Assembly: GCA_902560315.1 (NCBI GenBank)
Contig: CACELG010000003.1
Location: forward strand, 36,306-100,305
Length of the DNA: 64,000 nt
Direction of reading: 5' to 3'
From: an uncultured SAR86 cluster bacterium
Lineage (GTDB): Bacteria; Pseudomonadota; Gammaproteobacteria; Magnimaribacterales; D2472
A model generated the notes under the pieces. That model was not told where the DNA came from, ran no database searches, and was given only the letters and a program-made list of their open reading frames with translations. Shown one piece after another: positions 11,249-26,590 of this stretch (position 1 is the first letter of the stretch; each line of letters opens with the position of its first letter). The translations under genes were made by a program, and so were the position numbers.

Positions 11249-11908
11249 TTATTCCATATTTTTCAATAACTGCAAGGCTAAGGATGAAGCAGTATTATTT
11301 GGGTATTCCCTTACAACAAAATTATATTTATCTTTAGCATTTTCAATTTCATTTGATCTAAGAAAAATATCTCCTATTTTTTTATGAGCTAATGGAACTC
11401 TGTAATGATTTGGGTAAGAACTTATCAGGTTCATAAAATAATCATTAGATTTTTCTAAATTGTTATTTATTAAACAAATCTCTCCAAGCCAAAAATAAGA
11501 AAGAGGCGTTTTTTCTTCATCATTAAAGCTTTCAACAAAATACTTAAATAAATTTAGTGCCTCTTCAAAACTTTGATTTTCTAGTGCATTGATGGCAGCT
11601 GAATAAACCTGATCTTTGCTTTCAAGATCTTCAACACCTTCAAATCTAATTTCTGCATTTAAGGTTAAATCCTCTAAATTACTTAAATTCTCTTTTTCAT
11701 CAGTATTCATAGATTCTTTTATTAATTTCTCAATCAGATAATTTTGAGATTCAATTTTGTTTCTTAAGTCTGCGATTTCAGATTCTAGCTCTTGAATCTT
11801 TAAGAAAAGAATATCTGTTTTGGCTTCTTCATTTTCATTAGCATTCAATATGGGAATCAGGAACAGACAAAAATAAAAATATTTAAATAAACAAATTTTG
11901 CAATTCAT
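11249..11908 (-). CDS. cpoB: Cell division coordinator CpoB (YbgF)
   Basis: N-terminal coiled coil plus TPRs (YFWLGE, YPN); follows pal. Confidence 0.88.
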   Translation of the reverse strand: MNCKICLFKYFYFCLFLIPILNANENEEAKTDILFLKIQELESEIADLRNKIESQNYLIEKLIKESMNTDEKENLSNLEDLTLNAEIRFEGVEDLESKDQVYSAAINALENQSFEEALNLFKYFVESFNDEEKTPLSYFWLGEICLINNNLEKSNDYFMNLISSYPNHYRVPLAHKKIGDIFLRSNEIENAKDKYNFVVREYPNNTASSLALQLLKNME

Positions 11909-12396
11909 TAATTGACTTCAACTCTTCTATTTTTTGAATAGCTTTTTTCATTTTGGCCTGACACTGCAGGTCTTTCTTCACCATAACTTTTTACAGTAAT
12001 TCTGCTTTTACTAATTCCATTAAGAACAAGGTAGTCACTGACTGTTTCAGCTCTTCTCTGACCCAATGCCAGGTTATATTCTCTTGTTCCTCTTTCATCA
12101 GCATGACCAGCAAGTGTAATTTGAATAGAAGAATTTTCATTTAAAGCATTAACAGTACTTTTTAGTGTTTGAATTGATTTGCTTGTTAAATTTGATTTAT
12201 CAAATTCAAAATATATAGTTGCATTAGCAAAAACTGCCATGCTGTCATATCTTATATTTTCATTATTTATAGATGTTGCTTCTACTGTTTTTACTCCTCC
12301 AGAACTAACTTTTTCTTGAGTTACGTTCATGCTTGAACAAGATGACAAAAAAATTATTACAATTAAAAAATTTAATTTATTTCTAAAAATAAACAT
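11908..12396 (-). CDS. pal: Peptidoglycan-associated lipoprotein Pal
   Basis: Lipobox LSSC; IYFEFDKS, GHADERGTREYNLALGQRRA, NRRVE. Confidence 0.96.
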   Translation of the reverse strand: MFIFRNKLNFLIVIIFLSSCSSMNVTQEKVSSGGVKTVEATSINNENIRYDSMAVFANATIYFEFDKSNLTSKSIQTLKSTVNALNENSSIQITLAGHADERGTREYNLALGQRRAETVSDYLVLNGISKSRITVKSYGEERPAVSGQNEKSYSKNRRVEVN

Positions 12397-12412: not shown

Positions 12413-13669
12413 TTATCTTAAAAATCCTGACCAGGATGGTTCCCTTACAGCTCCTTTTTTAGCAGGTAATCTAAACTTAGCACCACTTAAAGTCACCCCA
12501 GAAAGCAATCCCATGCCCTCATCTGTTATAGAGTAGACTATAACATTTCCATTAGGTGAAATGCTAGGAGATTCATCCATTTGAGCTTCAGTAAGAGGCC
12601 TTATAAAATTTTCATCAAAATATTTGATTGCTATTTGAAAATTCGTATTTGCTCTGTGAACAAATACAATTCCTTCATTATTTGGTAAATAGGCTCCTTT
12701 GGCATTGTAATTACCATCAAAAGTTAACCTTTTAGGTCTTGAATTGAATCTTCTTAATTCCAATTCGTAAAGTTGTGGAGATCCAGATCGACCAGAAGTA
12801 AATAAGATTTTTGAACCTCTTGGTGACCACGAGGACTCAGTATCAATAGAATAATGATTTGTTAATCTTGTAAGGTTTTTATTTTTTAAATTAAGAATAT
12901 AAATTTCTGCATTGCCATCTTGATACATTGTTAAAGATAAAAACTTTCCATCTGGTGAAAATGATGGTGAACTTATTTGAGATGAATTTTCAATTGCAAT
13001 TTCTCTTTTTCCTGAAGCTATGTCTTGAATAAAAACTTTTGCCATTCCAGTTTCGAACGAAACATATGCAACTTTTTTTGAGTCTGGAGACCATACAGGA
13101 GAAATAATTGGCTCTGTGCTTTTAAGCAGGATTTGTTCATTAGCCCCGTCAGCATCAGCAATAACTAAATTAAAATCCTCTTTTTGTGTAACATAAAGAA
13201 TCTTTGTAGAAGCTATTCCTTTAATTCCAGTAATCTCTTCATAAATACCATCACTTATATAATGACCAAGCTGTCTATTCTTGTTAGGAATTCCATAAAC
13301 TGTTGATGTTCTAACTTTTGAACCTTTTTTAATGTCAAAAACCTGATACTCAGCTGAGATATTTGTTCCTTCAGTAAGAATTTCTCCCATAACCAGATAG
13401 TCGATATTTAAAATTTTAAAGTCATTAAAAACAATTTCTTCTTCATTATTTGGTAGGGAAAGTAATTTTTCACTTTCGAATATTTTAAATTCACCAGATC
13501 TAACTAGATTGTTTTGAATAACTTTGTTCAAAGTATCGCTAATTTCTTTATCTCCTTTAAATGGGACTAATGCAACTCGATAAGGATCTTCTGTACCTTG
13601 GGTAATCTCTAGAACAAGCTCAGATAATAAAAAATTAGAAAATATCAATATTAAAAATATCTTTTTCAT
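12413..13669 (-). CDS. tolB: Tol-Pal beta-propeller protein TolB
   Basis: ADADG, SP.WSPD repeats, AYVSFE, REPSWS. Confidence 0.96.
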   Translation of the reverse strand: MKKIFLILIFSNFLLSELVLEITQGTEDPYRVALVPFKGDKEISDTLNKVIQNNLVRSGEFKIFESEKLLSLPNNEEEIVFNDFKILNIDYLVMGEILTEGTNISAEYQVFDIKKGSKVRTSTVYGIPNKNRQLGHYISDGIYEEITGIKGIASTKILYVTQKEDFNLVIADADGANEQILLKSTEPIISPVWSPDSKKVAYVSFETGMAKVFIQDIASGKREIAIENSSQISSPSFSPDGKFLSLTMYQDGNAEIYILNLKNKNLTRLTNHYSIDTESSWSPRGSKILFTSGRSGSPQLYELELRRFNSRPKRLTFDGNYNAKGAYLPNNEGIVFVHRANTNFQIAIKYFDENFIRPLTEAQMDESPSISPNGNVIVYSITDEGMGLLSGVTLSGAKFRLPAKKGAVREPSWSGFLR

Positions 13670-14292
13670 GATGGGTTAAATGTTATAACGATATTTTTAA
13701 AATTAGATAAGTATATGTTGTAAGGAATACTATTAAAAAAATTAAAAGTTTCAATTCTTTGCACTGCCATTAAAGCCGAATTATCAAATCTTATATTTCC
13801 ACTACTTTTGATGAGATTAACATTTATAATTCTCCCGTTTTTATTAATCGTTATCCTCAAGTCGCATATAAGGCCATCCTGAATATTAAGAGGCTTTCGC
13901 CACGCTGACTGTAAACTTTGAATAATTAAAGAACTATATAATTCTACTTGGCTTTGTTCAGACTCTTGAGATATAAGACTGTCTTCCCTTAATAGATCTT
14001 CAAAACTTGTTGATGGAATAAGAGAATCGAATGAAATATATTTTTCAGGGACAATATCTTGAGGGATCTGATTGCTCTCTACAACCTCCTCAGCCTTAAT
14101 TTCTTGTATCTGATTTGAATTACTTTTGATCGGAACTTCATCTTTAAATACTAAATTAACCTCTATTGGTTTGCTCAAGATAGATCTTTCTCTAGCTTCA
14201 AAATAAAAATATCCAAGAAGATATAAAATAATTGATGCATGAATCAAAAATGAAATAAAAGATGCCTCTAGGTATATTTTATTAATTCTCAT
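13666..14292 (-). CDS. tolA: Short TolA-like energy transducer
   Basis: TM helix with SHLS-type motif (SFLIH); C-terminal domain W..P...SSGN..FD.SA..AV; lies between tolR and tolB. Confidence 0.85.
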   Translation of the reverse strand: MRINKIYLEASFISFLIHASIILYLLGYFYFEARERSILSKPIEVNLVFKDEVPIKSNSNQIQEIKAEEVVESNQIPQDIVPEKYISFDSLIPSTSFEDLLREDSLISQESEQSQVELYSSLIIQSLQSAWRKPLNIQDGLICDLRITINKNGRIINVNLIKSSGNIRFDNSALMAVQRIETFNFFNSIPYNIYLSNFKNIVITFNPS

Positions 14293-14704
14293 AACCTGAC
14301 GTTACGATACCAATTTTAGATATTCCAACACTCTGAACAGAAGCCATTCCTTTAGCTACGAAATCAAAGGCAACATCCTTATCGCTTTGAAAAACGACCT
14401 CAATCTCAGGATTGGCATCAAATATTACTCTAGATTTTCTTTTAAGTTCCTCTAGATTTATTGATAAAGATTCATCCCCAACATTGATAAAATAATTACC
14501 TTCCCTATTAATTGAAATCACCAGAGGTTCATTTTGCACAGTCATCTTAGTAGTATCCGTTTGAGGTAAATTCACTTCGATACCTTGTATTAAAAGTGGT
14601 GATAGAACCATAAATATAATTAATAAAACAAGCATTACATCGATATAAGGAACTACATTAATTTCAGCTTTAAGGTTCTTCTTCTTTGCAAGTCTATAAA
14701 TCAT
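14282..14704 (-). CDS. tolR: TolR
   Basis: EINVVPYIDVMLVLLIIFM. Confidence 0.96.
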   Translation of the reverse strand: MIYRLAKKKNLKAEINVVPYIDVMLVLLIIFMVLSPLLIQGIEVNLPQTDTTKMTVQNEPLVISINREGNYFINVGDESLSINLEELKRKSRVIFDANPEIEVVFQSDKDVAFDFVAKGMASVQSVGISKIGIVTSGYEN

Positions 14705-15375
14705 TATTTTTTATTAATCGATTTTTTATAAAAAATACTTGCTAATTCTTCTGCAAAAATTAATGTGCTCTGGCTAATTGTCTCTGATTCAGAAGTAAAT
14801 TTATTAAATGCTACTACAGCAGGAATTGCTGCAAATAATCCCATGCCAGTTGCTATTAATGCTTCTGAGATACCAGGTGCAACAGCATTTATTGTGGCTT
14901 GAGTAGCATCAGATAAGCCTTGAAAAGATGTCATAATACCCCAAACTGTTCCTAATAATCCTACGTATGGACTAACTGAACCAACATTGGCTAAAAAAGA
15001 TAAATGTTTATTCATCTCTTCTTCATCTGAAGCAATCGAAACTCTCATTGATCTATTGATACCCTCAAGATCAAATTCTGAAATATTATCTTCTGAATTA
15101 ATTAAAGAAAACTCATCAAATGAATTCTTAAAAAGATTCTTAGCTCCGTAAAGTGAAGATTCTTTTGATACTTCTTTATATAAAATATCCAAATCTTTAC
15201 CACTCCAAAAAGTTTTAAGAAAATTATCATTCTCGCTTTTTATCTTTCTAAAAAAATTAGATCTTTCAACAATAACTATCCAAGATAAAATTGAAGCAAT
15301 AAAAAGCAATAGCATGACAATCTTTACAACCATTCCTGCTTCTAGAAAAAGATTTAAAACTGAAATATCATCCAT
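14704..15375 (-). CDS. tolQ: TolQ
   Basis: SPYVGLLGTVWGIM, VAPGISEALIAT.MGLFAAIPAV. Confidence 0.96.
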   Translation of the reverse strand: MDDISVLNLFLEAGMVVKIVMLLLFIASILSWIVIVERSNFFRKIKSENDNFLKTFWSGKDLDILYKEVSKESSLYGAKNLFKNSFDEFSLINSEDNISEFDLEGINRSMRVSIASDEEEMNKHLSFLANVGSVSPYVGLLGTVWGIMTSFQGLSDATQATINAVAPGISEALIATGMGLFAAIPAVVAFNKFTSESETISQSTLIFAEELASIFYKKSINKK

Positions 15376-15383
15376 AATTTTTC

Positions 15384-15794
15384 CTACTTAAAAATTAATA
15401 ATAAATCATTCGGAAACTTTTGTGGTTTTTTTGTAGTGAGATTAATAAAACACACTTCTACTTCTCCTTTTACATACTCTTTGTTATCTTTTTTGTTAAT
15501 AACTTTTTGATAGAAAATCATTCTTGCATCAGATTTTTTTTCAACACTAGATTTGATAATTATTTCATCTCCAAGTTCAGCAGGTGATTTATAATGAAGT
15601 TCGATTCTTTTTATAACAAAGGCTGTGTCTGCCTTTATTAATTTTTTTTGTAATATTCCATTTTTTGATAAAAATTCTGATCTTGATCTCTCAAAATATT
15701 TCACATAATTTGAATGATAAACAAAACCTTGAAAATCAGTATCTTCAACATACACTTTGTAGTGTAGGTCATCACACTTGATAATTTTGCTCAT
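15384..15794 (-). CDS. ybgC: Tol-Pal-associated acyl-CoA thioesterase YbgC
   Basis: VYVEDTDFQGFVYHSNYVKYFERSRSE; upstream of tolQ. Confidence 0.92.
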   Translation of the reverse strand: MSKIIKCDDLHYKVYVEDTDFQGFVYHSNYVKYFERSRSEFLSKNGILQKKLIKADTAFVIKRIELHYKSPAELGDEIIIKSSVEKKSDARMIFYQKVINKKDNKEYVKGEVEVCFINLTTKKPQKFPNDLLLIFK

Positions 15795-16197
15795 GAAGCT
15801 CTATATCCTCTTGAAATAGTTCTAATATTATTTGAATAAAATCTGGCCATAACAAATCAATTGTTACAAGATTATTTTTTATATTCTTATTAATTGAGTT
15901 TGCAAGAATTCGAACTTTTATTGGTCTGTTATTAAATTTGTAGACAAGCGCTGGCATTGACCCCTCTGCGCTTGAAGATGCAAGAACTTGCTCCCACCAA
16001 TCAGGTCTGGGCTCTGCACCGGTTCCATAGGCTTTGCATTCAATACACCACCTACCAAGCGTAAGATCCGGCAGCTCTTTAGTTCTAGTTTGTTCAAGAA
16101 TTCTTTTAACAGGATTTTTTAGATTTAAATCATCTATAAGTGCATTTGCTATTTGCCTTTCGAATGCAGCCCCTTTATTTCTTGAATTTATAGACAA
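15772..16197 (-). CDS. PD-(D/E)XK nuclease, Hjc-like/phage-type putative Holliday junction resolvase (TTG start)
   Basis: KGAAFER (E13), PD (D44) and IECK (E53-x-K55) give the Hjc-type motif order; occupies the ruvCAB position. Confidence 0.72.
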   Translation of the reverse strand: MSINSRNKGAAFERQIANALIDDLNLKNPVKRILEQTRTKELPDLTLGRWCIECKAYGTGAEPRPDWWEQVLASSSAEGSMPALVYKFNNRPIKVRILANSINKNIKNNLVTIDLLWPDFIQIILELFQEDIELHEQNYQV

Positions 16198-16200
16198 AAT

Positions 16201-16938
16201 TTAATCCTTAGCCTCAAAACTATCAGGGAATTCAGCGTTAGTATGAACTTCTTGAACATCATCAAGATCATCCATAAATTCCATGATGTTTAAAACTTTT
16301 TCTGACATTTCATTATCTAAACATACGAGGGTCTCAGCTCGTAAAGTTAATTCTGCATTTAAATATTTAATATCATTTTGCTTAAAAATATCTATAATTT
16401 TATTAAAATCATTTGGCTCGGTTGTCACTTCAAAAAAATCTTCTTCATTAGTAATATCAATTGCACCAGATTCAATGACTAATTCCATTAGTTTTTCTTC
16501 GGAAAATTCTTTATTTATATGAATCAAACCAAGCTTTTTAAATAAATATGAAACTGATCCATCTGTACCAAGATTTCCTCCAAATTTTGAGAAAGCATGT
16601 CTAACATCTGAAACAGTTCTATTTCTGTTATCAGTCATAGTTTCAACCAAAATTGCTACTCCACCAGGTCCATAGCCCTCAAAAACAATTTCTTCTAATT
16701 GACCTGTTTCGCCAGTACCTGAACCCTTTTCAATAGCTCTTTTAATGGTATCTTTTGGCATGTTAGCCGCGTTTGCTTTTTCAAGAGCTAATCTCAATCT
16801 AGGATTATCATTTGGGTCAGGCCCATCTTTTGCGGCTACAGTTATTTCTCTAATAACTTTTGTCCAAACCTTACCTCTCGATGCATCCTGTCTGGCTTTT
16901 CGATGTTTTATGTTTGCCCACTTTGAATGACCAGCCAT
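16201..16938 (-). CDS. yebC: YebC/PmpR family protein
   Basis: MAGHSKWANIKHRK, EGYGPGG, TDNRNRT. Confidence 0.97.
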   Translation of the reverse strand: MAGHSKWANIKHRKARQDASRGKVWTKVIREITVAAKDGPDPNDNPRLRLALEKANAANMPKDTIKRAIEKGSGTGETGQLEEIVFEGYGPGGVAILVETMTDNRNRTVSDVRHAFSKFGGNLGTDGSVSYLFKKLGLIHINKEFSEEKLMELVIESGAIDITNEEDFFEVTTEPNDFNKIIDIFKQNDIKYLNAELTLRAETLVCLDNEMSEKVLNIMEFMDDLDDVQEVHTNAEFPDSFEAKD

Positions 16939-16941
16939 AAA

Positions 16942-18708
16942 TTATTCTTCCTTATGAGTACTTATTATTTTTAACTCATCGAGTTGATCTTTATCCACTT
17001 TACTTGGCGCATCGGTTAGCAAACATGACGCACTTTGTGTTTTTGGAAAAGCAATGACGTCTCTTATATTTGAAGTATCAGTTACAAGCATAACAATTCT
17101 ATCAAGACCAAATGCTATGCCTCCATGTGGTGGACATCCTGAGGAAAGCGCTTTCAATAAAAATCCAAATTTACTTTCTGCTTCATCTTTTGAGATATTT
17201 AAAATATCAAAAATAGCTTTTTGCATTAAGGTATCAAATATTCTTAAAGACCCTCCCCCTATTTCATATCCGTTTAAAACAACATCATATGCGTATGCGA
17301 TTACCTCATCAGGATTATCTTGTATTTCTTTAATTGAACATTTTGGTAATGTAAATGGATGATGTAAAGGTGTTAAATTACCTTCGTTATTAATTTCAAA
17401 CATCGGGAAGTTAACTACCCAGCAAGGCGCCCATTTTTTAGAATATAAATCAAGGTCTTCACCGAGTTTCTTAATCAAAGAACTCATTGATAAATTAACA
17501 ACTGATTCTTTTCCTGCTCCAAAGAAAATTAAATCATCTGTTGAAACATCTAAAGACTTAATTATGTTTTCTACTGTTTGTGGTTTTAAAAATTTAAGAA
17601 TCGGAGACTGGATGCCATTTTCTAAATCCTTTACATCATTAATCTTTATATATGCCAAACCTTTGGCTCCAAGTTTAGAAACAAACTTAGTGTAATCATC
17701 TATTTGTCCTCTTGATAATGAATTTCCATTAGGTACTTTTAAAGCAACTACTCTAGATCCTTTTTTAGATGCAGGTTCGGAAAATACTTTAAATTCTTCA
17801 TCTTTTACCTGCTCAGAAATTTCAACCAAACTTAACGGTATTCTTAAGTCAGGTTTATCACATCCATAATCTCGAATTGCATCATGCCAATCGATAACTT
17901 CAAATTTTTCTAGCTTATCTCCACAAAAATCTTTAATGATATTTTTTATCATTTTTTCACTAATACTCATTATTTCTTCTTGTTCTATAAAAGAAGCTTC
18001 GATATCAATTTGTGTAAACTCTGGTTGTCTATCTGCTCTTAAATCTTCATCCCTAAAACATCTAGCTATTTGATAGTATTTATCTAAACCTCCTATCATA
18101 AGAAGTTGTTTAAATAATTGAGGTGACTGTGGAAGAGCATAGAAGCTTCCTGGTTGAACTCTACTTGGAAGAATATAATCCCTAGCTCCTTCTGGTGTTG
18201 CCTTGGTTAATATAGGAGTTTCAATTTCATGGAAATCATTTTTATCTAAAAAGTTCCTTATTAAAGAAGTTATTTTTGATCTAGTTATAATTCTTTCGTT
18301 CATCTCAGGCCTTCTTAAATCTAAAACTCGATTTTTAAGTCTTACATCTTCGTTAACCTCTTGGTATTCATCAATTGGAAATACTGGAGTTTTCGCTTTG
18401 CTTAGAATTGTTAAGTCGCCTACTTCAATCTCAATTTCGCCTGTGTGCATATTTTTATTTATAGTTCCTTCTAATCTTTTTCTTACACTTCCTTTAATTT
18501 GCACTACATATTCATTCCTAATTGATTCTGCTAATTGAAATGATTTTGCATTATCAGGATTGACGACTGCCTGACATATACCTCTTATGTCTCTAATGTC
18601 TAAAAATATTACTCCTCCATGATCCCTTCTTCTATGAACCCAGCCACAAATCATTACTTCCTCTTTAAGGTTCGAAGATGTTATTTCGCCACAATAATGA
18701 GATTTCAT
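16942..18708 (-). CDS. aspS: Aspartyl-tRNA synthetase, probably non-discriminating (Asp/Asn)
   Basis: [44 protein letters not shown]. Confidence 0.98.
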
Positions 18709-21568: not shown

Positions 21569-22576
21569 CTATTTTGATTTACTTGAAATATAGGATGATC
21601 TTATTTCTTTAACAAGTTTGTCTCTAACTTTTGCGTTTTCTTTAAGGAAAATGCTAGCTTTCACCTTGCCTTGCCCAATACTTTCACCATCCAATTTATA
21701 AAAAGCACCTGATTTTTCAACTAGCCCGAGTTTATGTCCAAAGTCGAGTATTTCACCTTCCTGATTAATTCCTTGGCCATACATGATCTGAAACTCAGCT
21801 TGTTTAAATGGAGGAGATACTTTGTTCTTAACGACTTTCACTCGTGTTTCGTTACCCATCACTTCATCTCCCTCTTTAACAGATCCGATTCTTCTAATAT
21901 CTAATCTTACTGAAGAATAGAACTTTAGAGCATTACCTCCAGTAGTTGTTTCAGGACTACCAAACATAACTCCAATCTTCATTCTTATTTGATTAATAAA
22001 AACGACAGTGGCTCCAGATCTTTGGATGTTACCTGTAATTTTTCTAAGCGCTTGTGACATCAATCTAGCTTGAAGACCAACATGATGATCTCCCATCTCT
22101 CCTTCAATTTCAGCTCTTGGAACCAGTGCAGCAACAGAATCAATAATAACTAAATCTACACTCTTAGATTTAACAAGCATATCAGCAACTTCAAGTGCTT
22201 GTTCTCCAGTATCAGGTTGAGATAATAGAAGCTCATCTACATTAACACCTAGTTTCTCAGCATATTGAGGATCTAATGCATGCTCTGCATCAATAAACGC
22301 ACATGTACCGCCTTCTTTTTGACATTGAGCAATAATTTGAAGCGTTAATGTTGTTTTACCAGAAGACTCTGGTCCATATATCTCAGTAACCCTTCCTCTT
22401 GGAATTCCTCCTATCCCAAGCGCTATGTCAAGCCCAAGTGATCCTGTTGAGATTGATGGGATATCAAGATTTTCACGATCACCCATTCTCATTACTGTTC
22501 CTTTACCGAAATGGTCATCAATACTAGCAATAGTATCCTTCAATGATTTTGAAGTAGTATCTTTTGATTTAGGCAT
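21569..22576 (-). CDS. recA: Recombinase RecA
   Basis: [23 protein letters not shown]. Confidence 0.99.
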
Positions 22577-24414: not shown

Positions 24415-25159
24415 CTAACATCTTTGAAATATCTTTAATAAAACTTGATGAGCTCAAACTATAATCAAGAACTGAAACAGAAACATAGCCAGTCTTGATT
24501 GCCTCTGCATCAGTCATGAAATTATCTTTAAGGGGTTCTCCGGACAGATTATATCTGTATCTATATAGATTTTTCGAATCTTGATTATCAACTCTGATTG
24601 GTTTTGCAGGAATGCCTCTTTTTGATAATCCTGTTGCTAGAATACCTTTAAACTCTTCCTCATTAATATCTGGAAAATTAATATTAATAACTTTTCCATT
24701 AAAAATTTCATTGTAAGAAACAATTTTTTCAATTAATTCAATTGATTTTTTTGTAATAAATTTAATATCTTTTGCATCATACGATGCAACAGAAATTGCA
24801 ATTGGTGGATATTTTAAATTTCTTCCACCTACTGCTGCACCTACGGTGCCAGAATAAAGAACATCATTGCCAATGTTCGCTCCGTGATTGATTCCTGATA
24901 CAACAATATCAAATTCAAAATCAACAATACTTAAAAGACCTAAGTATGAACAATCTGCGGGGGTTCCATCAACAGCATAAATTCTATCATCCACCTTGGT
25001 AACCTCTATCTCATTTAAATATGATATTGCTGCACTCATTCCACTACAATTATTTTTAGGAGCAACCATCCATACCTCATGATTCTTAGATAATTCTTTA
25101 TAAAGAATTTTTATATTTTCAGCATCAAAGCCGTCATCATTGGTAAGTAATATTTTCAT
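24407..25159 (-). CDS. surE: 5'/3'-nucleotidase SurE
   Basis: ILLTNDDG, GTPADC, SGINHGAN, YSGTVGAA. Confidence 0.97.
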   Translation of the reverse strand: MKILLTNDDGFDAENIKILYKELSKNHEVWMVAPKNNCSGMSAAISYLNEIEVTKVDDRIYAVDGTPADCSYLGLLSIVDFEFDIVVSGINHGANIGNDVLYSGTVGAAVGGRNLKYPPIAISVASYDAKDIKFITKKSIELIEKIVSYNEIFNGKVININFPDINEEEFKGILATGLSKRGIPAKPIRVDNQDSKNLYRYRYNLSGEPLKDNFMTDAEAIKTGYVSVSVLDYSLSSSSFIKDISKMLDE

Positions 25160-26301
25160 TTTTTTTCTCTAAGATTTACAAGGCTTTGGACTGCTATTGC
25201 CTTGTTTTTACCAATAATACCAATTTTTTCAGAAGTTGTTGCTTTTAAACCAATCTTAGAAACTGGTATTGATAAAAGATTAGATAATTCTTTTAGAATC
25301 TTTTCTCTGTGGGGTGCAATCTTAGGTTGTTCACATATTATTGTAGTATCAATATTATAAATCTCTAAACCTCTTTCATTTAATTGATCCAAACAATATT
25401 TAATAATTTCTATACTATTTAAGTCTTTATTATTTTCATCTTGATCTGAAAAAAATATTCCTATATCTCCTAATGCAGCTGCACCTAAAATTGAGTCTGC
25501 AATTGAATGAAGCAAAACATCACCATCTGAGTGAGCAATAATTTTATAATCGCATTCTATTTTATAGCCACCTAAAATTATCCCATCTCCAGCTTGATAT
25601 TTATGCAAGTCAAAACCTACACCACTTCTAGTAAGAAAATTATTTAAAATCTCTAAATCCTCTGGTTCGGTAACTTTAATATTTGAACGAGATCCTTTAA
25701 CTTTTGACAAAGTTAAATTTGCATATTCGATAGCAAAAGATTCATCAGGGCAATTTATATTTTCATCAATACACCTTCTTATTGATGATTTTAAATGACT
25801 GAATTTAGAAATTTGAGGTGTCTGAACTAGATAGAATTTATTTTTATCTTTTGTTGTATCTTTAGGGCTTATTTCTTCCTTGAGTGAATCGTATACGGGA
25901 ATATATAAAAAAGAGCAACTTGTCTTGGACTTTTTAATATCTTTATATAAATTAACAATATCATCTTCTGTAATATTTGGTCTGGCCGCATCATGAGTTA
26001 ATACATATTCATATTCTCTATCAGCAGCATTAAGTGCATTATTTATTGATTCTTGTCTTGAATTACCGCCAACAACATATTTAATTTTATTAGAATTATA
26101 AAAATTTTGATTTTTAATATGACTGTCATCTTCAGAAATGGCAATAATTATTTCTGAAACATATGCGGAATCAACGAAAGGCTTAACAGCACTTTCGATT
26201 ATAGTATTTCCATTTACCCTGGCATATTGCTTTGGAATCTTATTGCCAAACCTTTCTCCTAATCCAGCTGCCGCAATGATTGTTAATATATTTTCATTCA
26301 T
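25156..26301 (-). CDS. ispDF: Bifunctional IspD/IspF fusion (MEP pathway)
   Basis: IspD motifs AAGLGERFG..PKQY, HDAARP, QTPQ, NIKVT, followed in frame by IspF motifs GFDLH, HSDGDV, KATTSE. Start moved to ATG 26301. Confidence 0.93.
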   Translation of the reverse strand: MNENILTIIAAAGLGERFGNKIPKQYARVNGNTIIESAVKPFVDSAYVSEIIIAISEDDSHIKNQNFYNSNKIKYVVGGNSRQESINNALNAADREYEYVLTHDAARPNITEDDIVNLYKDIKKSKTSCSFLYIPVYDSLKEEISPKDTTKDKNKFYLVQTPQISKFSHLKSSIRRCIDENINCPDESFAIEYANLTLSKVKGSRSNIKVTEPEDLEILNNFLTRSGVGFDLHKYQAGDGIILGGYKIECDYKIIAHSDGDVLLHSIADSILGAAALGDIGIFFSDQDENNKDLNSIEIIKYCLDQLNERGLEIYNIDTTIICEQPKIAPHREKILKELSNLLSIPVSKIGLKATTSEKIGIIGKNKAIAVQSLVNLREKK

Positions 26302-26590
26302 CTTTTTCTTCATCTTTAAAGGATATAAATTCCTCATCGGGATAGGTTAGATTCAGATTCTCTCTTGCAAAATTTTCAATGTGATCATTTGAATCCTGAG
26401 CGTTTTTAATTTCAAATTCAAGAATTTCATTTTCTTTTCTTAGACTATTATTAGTGTTTTGATGAGTACTAGTTTCTTCTAATAATGAATTTTTTTTCGA
26501 ATAATTATTTTCTCCAAAAAAAATGCTATTTAATAAGAGAAATATTATTAAAAGCAAAGCTGCTAATAACAAATAATAAAACTTATTCAT
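26294..26590 (-). CDS. ftsB: Cell division protein FtsB
   Basis: TM helix plus coiled coil and IE..ARE.L.L..PDE; lies between eno and ispD. Confidence 0.88.
   Translation of the reverse strand: MNKFYYLLLAALLLIIFLLLNSIFFGENNYSKKNSLLEETSTHQNTNNSLRKENEILEFEIKNAQDSNDHIENFARENLNLTYPDEEFISFKDEEKDE

What the first reader, a model, noticed from the sequence alone, without database searches (positions are those of the whole stretch)
15772..16197. ruvCAB slot occupied by a single Hjc/phage-type nuclease: candidate domesticated Holliday-junction resolvase
Seen: the order is aspS-yebC-[141-aa ORF]-ybgC-tolQRAB-pal-cpoB. The ORF starts 3 nt after the yebC stop, overlaps ybgC by 23 nt, and has no flanking phage genes or att sites. 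It carries KGxxFER (E13), PD (D44) and ECK (E53/K55), then WWxQ...PxLVYK. Established: in Pseudomonas-like Gammaproteobacteria this position holds ruvC-ruvA-ruvB. Archaeal Hjc has the same motif order (KG..xER, D, ExK) and is unrelated to RNase-H-fold RuvC; similar small nucleases occur in phages. Inference: the roughly 2-kb Ruv system was displaced in situ by a 0.4-kb non-orthologous resolvase. Branch migration might then come from RecG, as when RusA suppresses ruv mutants.
Basis: partly seen in the sequence, partly recalled or inferred. Interest (0 to 1): 0.88.

Follow-up and report, generated by a model that had tools for sequence, protein, structure and literature searches.

The report
Phage-type junction nuclease replaces RuvABC
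In SAR86, abundant ocean bacteria that lack the usual three-gene machine for untangling recombining DNA, one small, strongly conserved nuclease gene of a phage family sits exactly where those genes normally are and most likely does the cutting instead; this genome has also lost the back-up helicase RecG.

Summary
Confirmed, on the minus strand. The 141-aa ORF belongs to the phage nuclease family PF24608. Its predicted fold is closest to archaeal Hjc/Hje, and seven residues essential in Pyrococcus Hjc align with residues invariant in 20 of 20 close homologues. It occurs in 55 of 57 well-assembled genomes of the order (SAR86); both misses are contig breaks. It lies directly after yebC in 63 of 64 loci, and dN/dS is about 0.05. 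RuvA, RuvB and RuvC were each found in 0 of 57 genomes, while RuvB was found in 391 of 396 other Gammaproteobacteria. The absence of the Ruv markers is already in a published supplementary table; I found no paper describing the replacement. Prophage relatives occupy the rusA/rap slot. RadA, RecQ, RarA and RecB/AddA were not found either. Best reading (0.72): a domesticated, stand-alone Holliday-junction resolvase. Junction cutting and dimer formation are untested. Precedents are Aquifex RusA and firmicute RecU. This scan noted the same replacement earlier in at least 8 other genomes.

The parts
15772..16197 (-). 141-aa PD-(D/E)xK nuclease, PF24608 (PDDEXK_15) / phrog_244, Hjc-like fold; candidate Holliday-junction resolvase
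16201..16938 (-). yebC, upstream border of the ruvCAB slot
   Evidence: directly upstream in 63 of 64 loci
15384..15794 (-). ybgC thioesterase, downstream border; overlaps the ORF by 23 nt
16942..18708 (-). aspS
14704..15375 (-). tolQ
14282..14704 (-). tolR
13666..14292 (-). tolA
   Evidence: TonB_2 and weak TolA C-terminal match; position
12413..13669 (-). tolB
11908..12396 (-). pal
   Evidence: OmpA domain; position
11249..11908 (-). cpoB (ybgF)
   Evidence: TPR, weak TolA_bind_tri; position
21569..22576 (-). recA: the recombinase that would make the junctions is kept

Best explanation
The ORF is a Holliday-junction resolvase of a phage family. It entered the chromosome of the SAR86 ancestor once, in the ruvC-ruvA-ruvB position of the yebC...ybgC-tol-pal block, and has since been inherited as a core gene. 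By analogy with Hjc (inferred), a dimer binds a four-way junction through its basic N-terminal part (K8, R14, R32, K87). Two Mg2+ sites (E13, D44, E53, K55) nick opposite strands, and ligase seals the products. It needs no RuvAB loader. The junctions would come from RecFOR-RecA gap repair, and XerCD would resolve any dimers. RecG may move junctions in the 36 of 57 genomes that keep it. In this genome no dedicated branch-migration helicase was found, so junctions would be cut near where RecA leaves them. Shown: position, distribution, absence of Ruv, purifying selection, fold and residue match. Inferred: dimer, junction specificity, role in the cell, order of events.
Against: No activity was measured, and I found no characterised member of PF24608. 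Sequence similarity to Hjc is below significance: profile against PDB E 0.18 at best; the Pfam Hjc model hits 4 of 112 members. Foldseek TM-scores are only about 0.5. The Hjc dimer residues V24, V35, F68, F72 (PMC10140301 passage) align with K31, T46, S74, E78 and are not conserved. An Hjc-like bacterial protein (UPF0102) with the catalytic triad was inactive in that paper. YqgF, which cuts junctions in vitro in some species (PMC11466669 passages), is present in 5 of 5 genomes. The lineage has shed many recombination genes, so loss of ruvABC need not have required a substitute.
Confidence: 0.72

Rival explanations
1. A broader branch-specific (debranching) nuclease that cuts forks, flaps and D-loops as readily as four-way junctions. 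It would serve fork restart and gap clean-up rather than act as a strict RuvC equivalent.
For: Viral resolvases are typically more promiscuous (PMC3864405, start of abstract in the listing). SPP1 G44P also cuts D-loops. The Hjc dimer face is not conserved, and in FAN1 loss of the dimer shifts a resolvase-like domain to flaps (PMC4103454 abstract). RecB/AddA was not found, so broken-fork repair looks limited.
Against: Without RecB/AddA, promiscuous fork cutting should be harmful (inference). The exact ruvC position and the full set of Hjc junction residues favour four-way junctions.
Confidence: 0.16
2. The ORF has another job (for example cutting phage DNA intermediates, or a repair step unrelated to RecA). 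Junctions are handled by YqgF, or are reversed by UvrD or RecG without cutting. Its position is then an accident of the event that deleted ruvCAB.
For: YqgF is present in 5 of 5 genomes. Streamlining also removed RadA, RecQ, RarA and RecB/AddA. Some of the closest viral relatives sit among virion and lysis genes.
Against: YqgF co-occurs with RuvC in most bacteria (PMC1193525 passage) and is not interchangeable with it in Acinetobacter (passage). Defence genes are usually patchy and fast-evolving (recalled), whereas this one is single-copy core with dN/dS 0.05. XerC/D-type genes are kept in 57 of 57 genomes, which fits crossovers being made.
Confidence: 0.09
3. A catalytically silent or non-nuclease DNA-binding protein that shares the fold.
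For: The Hjc-like UPF0102 protein bound DNA but did not cut it.
Against: E13, R32, D44, E53 and K55 are invariant in 112 of 112 aligned members, including the motif-I glutamate and the R25 equivalent that UPF0102 lacks.
Confidence: 0.03

Closest known systems
Archaeal Hjc/Hje resolvases (PF01870; PDB 1gef, 2wcw, 1ob8, 1hh1)
   Same: Closest solved fold by two aligners; same motif order; seven essential residues matched; similar size.
   Different: About 20% identity; no Pfam Hjc match for this protein; dimer-face residues not kept; family-specific WWxQ and RxLEQ motifs; core gene of a bacterial order.
Pfam PF24608 PDDEXK_15 / PHROG 244 phage nucleases
   Same: Member: 39.4 bits against a cut-off of 27; 112 of 112 aligned homologues match; 526 of 600 viral stretches encode a relative.
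   Different: Here it is a fixed chromosomal gene in a housekeeping block. The family has no tested function that I could find, and the PHROG label 'RusA-like' is not borne out.
RusA of Aquifex aeolicus / E. coli DLP12 rusA
   Same: Precedent for a phage-type resolvase in a RecA+ bacterium without RuvAB (PMC1193525 and PMC10956419 passages). Prophage relatives of the ORF sit in the rusA slot.
   Different: Unrelated sequence (hhalign probability 0.5%). Aquifex keeps RecG, this genome does not. That Aquifex rusA is not known to lie in the ruv slot is recalled, not tested.
RecU of Firmicutes
   Same: A PD-(D/E)xK resolvase that replaced RuvC in a whole lineage.
Hjc_15-6 of Thermus phage Tth15-6 (PDB 7bgs)
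   Same: Shows that a phage Hjc-fold protein cuts junctions (PMC8805305 passages).

Membership tests
PF24608 PDDEXK_15 | score above the Pfam gathering cut-off | tested here: met
   39.4 bits against 27, E 7e-10
Archaeal Hjc (PF01870) | Pfam Hjc profile match | tested here: not met
   no match for the ORF up to E 1; 4 of 112 homologues match, best E 2.4e-4
Archaeal Hjc (PF01870) | restriction-endonuclease-like core fold as in Hjc | tested here: met
Archaeal Hjc (PF01870) | catalytic E9, D33, E46, K48 and basic R10, R25, K81 | tested here: met
   E13, D44, E53, K55, R14, R32, K87 by the profile alignment to 1gef (that alignment is itself not significant, E 0.18); 20 of 20 in A1; K or R at 87 in 110 of 112 in A2
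Archaeal Hjc (PF01870) | motif I ending G(F/Y) 9-11 residues after the glutamate | tested here: not met
   E13 is followed by a longer helix and loop with no GF/GY (motif from PMC8805305 passage)
Archaeal Hjc (PF01870) | hydrophobic dimer-face residues V24, V35, F68, F72 | tested here: not met
   align with K31, T46, S74, E78; these columns are variable or charged
Holliday-junction resolvases (functional class) | homodimer with two active sites | not tested
Holliday-junction resolvases (functional class) | symmetric, ligatable cleavage of four-way junctions | not testable with these tools
   needs biochemistry
RusA (PF05866) | RusA profile or sequence similarity | tested here: not met
   no Pfam RusA match; hhalign against E. 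coli RusA probability 0.5%
RuvC (PF02075) | RNase H-fold RuvC profile | tested here: not met
   no match; hhalign against an outgroup RuvC probability 0.1%
VRR-NUC | VRR-NUC profile or fold | tested here: inconclusive

The most novel reading that the evidence does not exclude
In this genome's sub-lineage (21 of 57 genomes, five genera) the phage-derived nuclease is the only dedicated junction-processing enzyme left. RuvAB, RuvC, RecG and RecQ were not found, and RadA, RarA and RecB/AddA were not found in the three of its genomes tested. Homologous recombination in one of the most abundant free-living bacteria would then run on RecFOR-RecA plus a stand-alone Hjc-like resolvase, with no branch-migration helicase. 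This would also define PF24608 as a new resolvase family, possibly with a new dimer interface.
Probability: 0.4. Interest if true: 0.85.

Novelty: new variant of a known kind. Interest (0 to 1): 0.72.

Why it matters
RuvAB is nearly universal in RecA-positive bacteria (two exceptions among 117 species in PMC1193525; 391 of 396 outside this order here). An entire abundant marine order lacks all of RuvABC, a fact buried in a completeness table, and how it finishes recombination was unexplained. This gives one 141-aa candidate that can be tested in E. coli. It would be an Hjc-fold resolvase as a bacterial core gene, an in-place swap of a host machine for a phage gene, and a first function for a large phage family. 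With recG also lost, it points to a very small recombination pathway in a free-living cell.

Full report
Observation. The ORF lies at 15772-16197 on the minus strand: 141 aa, TTG start, 3 nt after the yebC stop, overlapping ybgC by 23 nt. Only 406 nt separate yebC from ybgC. Pfam confirms the order aspS-yebC-ORF-ybgC-tolQRAB-pal-cpoB, and recA lies about 5 kb away. The genome is 1.08 Mb, about 31% GC and 90.2% complete. I place it in SAR86 (Magnimaribacterales) because a relative at 83% identity is named SCGC AAA076-P13, a genus that a published table files under o__SAR86 (PMC11582366 supplement row), and because the order has four families in both sources.

The slot. I extended 20 of the best RuvB matches in other Gammaproteobacteria, chosen for score and contig length, not at random. 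In 13 of 20, three genes of RuvC, RuvA and RuvB size lie between yebC and ybgC, over 2.3-3.0 kb. RuvC and RuvA were confirmed by NCBIfam in the 5 loci tested. The yebC-ruvC link is in print (PMC3403352, abstract and section 4 part 1). In the order, the ORF follows yebC directly in 63 of 64 loci from the genome collection, tolQ lies within 900 nt downstream in 62, and ybgC in 48; the one exception is a distant 36% hit. One family has lost ybgC, and in G030 the downstream genes differ.

Mutual exclusion. Among 57 order genomes of at least 90% completeness, the ORF was found in 55. The two misses have contigs that end in or just after yebC. RuvC, RuvB and RuvA were each found in 0 of 57, while the same searches rang in 8, 10 and 10 of 14 control genomes. 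In an even draw from the class, RuvB was found in 391 of 400 scored genomes. The nine without were 4 of this order, 3 of 0.3-0.4 Mb and 2 of 1.1 Mb (one genome unscored; the tally includes four genomes flagged unpublished, G333, G343, G112 and G189). Of those five outside the order, three have yebC. The gene after it is RuvC in the two scanned (G233, G097), and G377 has the same layout as G233. Losing the motor there left the cutter in place. Kin are not independent: the 57 genomes amount to one event. Table S1 of PMC11582366 marks RuvA, RuvB, RuvC and RadA as absent from the closed genome HIMB1674, and as zero in all but 4-5 of about 730 genomes by my count of the rows shown. The main text says only that several missing markers concern recombination and repair (passages). 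Supplement files 13 and 14 were not searched.

Selection and origin. Within the genus dN/dS is 0.044 (this copy against 18 others; 5 with saturated dS left out of the dS mean) and 0.051 on the 18 of 171 pairs with pS<0.5. The same measures give 0.064/0.075 for yebC and 0.080/0.059 for tolQ. Many lie near exonuclease, Sak4, SSB and primase genes; the closest (52-55% identity) lie among virion and lysis genes. Outside the order the family was found in 3 of 397 class genomes and 8 of 400 phylum genomes (at most 10 candidates scored per genome). The nine loci examined are not in the slot; two weak hits were not examined. In three of the nine the gene follows NinB/YbcO or precedes a Q-like gene. 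That is where rusA sits in DLP12 and where lambdoid phages keep their resolvases (PMC4118853 passage). In a 70-row tree all 21 chromosomal copies fall in one clade (100/99) together with 3 viral lineages and 4 unplaced proteins, and host families mostly group together. Holding the chromosomal copies apart from those viral rows is not rejected (p 0.21). One acquisition followed by vertical descent fits. Phage origin is inferred from the family's distribution; the tree has no root, so donor versus recapture is open.

RecG-length matches occur in 36 of 57 genomes (one split over two contigs). In 21, all from five genera of this genome's family, only an Mfd-type hit was found; in two of these the hit is a cut fragment. 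Here the loss is clean: the two genes that flank recG in G060 are 61 nt apart in the middle of contig C5. RecQ was found in 0 of 57. In 5 genomes tested (this one and four single-contig ones), RadA, RarA, RusA and RecU were not found, and the RecB model hit only frames of UvrD size; RecR and YqgF were present in all 5. XerC/D-type genes are in 57 of 57.

Mechanism. Most likely (0.72) a stand-alone resolvase cuts the four-way junctions left by RecFOR-RecA gap repair, with RecG help only where RecG survives. Rivals are a broader debranching nuclease (0.16), an unrelated role with YqgF or helicase reversal handling junctions (0.09), and a non-catalytic binder (0.03). A plausible but untested route is loss of ruvAB first, as in the two outside lineages, then exchange of RuvC for an enzyme that works alone.

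Novelty. Replacement of RuvC by an analogue is known (RecU), as is a RecA-positive bacterium without RuvAB that has RusA and RecG (Aquifex) (PMC1193525 and PMC10956419 passages). A phage Hjc-fold resolvase has been characterised (PMC8805305 passages). I found no paper on this case: SAR86 with ruvC 0 papers; with Holliday junction 0; none among 30 listed; 0; no mention of PF24608 or phrog_244 among 15 listed; two unrelated listings. The library lacks most subscription papers. Other papers seen: PMC11466669 and PMC3485210 (passages), PMC4103454 (abstract). This scan recorded the same replacement in at least 8 other genomes; those notes are not support, but two of them led me to the published table. 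A word search of earlier notes for the recG loss returned nothing. Verdict: real, new variant of a known kind, interest 0.72.

Noticed in passing
G000:C5:31980-34689 (L255): recG is cleanly deleted from its locus between the H+-pyrophosphatase gene and its other neighbour (61 nt gap); not found in 21 of 57 order genomes, all in five genera.
   Followed up: yes
L036 (G066:C4:52016-52387): A second, distant copy (38%) of the family in a prophage with a RecE-like exonuclease, primase and terminase genes.
   Followed up: yes
L258 (G233), L257 (G377), L259 (G097): Gammaproteobacteria outside the order that lack RuvB but keep ruvC directly after yebC; in G233 it is followed by a radical SAM gene and queC.
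   Followed up: partly
family f4 (G027, G030, G033, G036, G039, G074, G075): All 7 give only a RecG-size match and no Mfd-size match, so Mfd may be lost; ybgC is also missing from the slot in those examined.
   Followed up: no
L045, L047-L059, L061: Phage contigs carry the closest relatives (42-55% identity); in L045 and L047-L059 they lie among virion, tail and lysis genes. They may be recaptures from SAR86 hosts or the donor lineage.
   Followed up: partly
L182, L229, L238: Records titled Rhodospirillaceae, Thaumarchaeota and Halobacteriovoraceae carry the same yebC-ORF-tolQ block at 50-98% identity; probably mislabelled or misbinned assemblies.
   Followed up: no
window 25156-26337 (-): IspD-IspF fusion gene, next to surE and pcm.
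   Followed up: no
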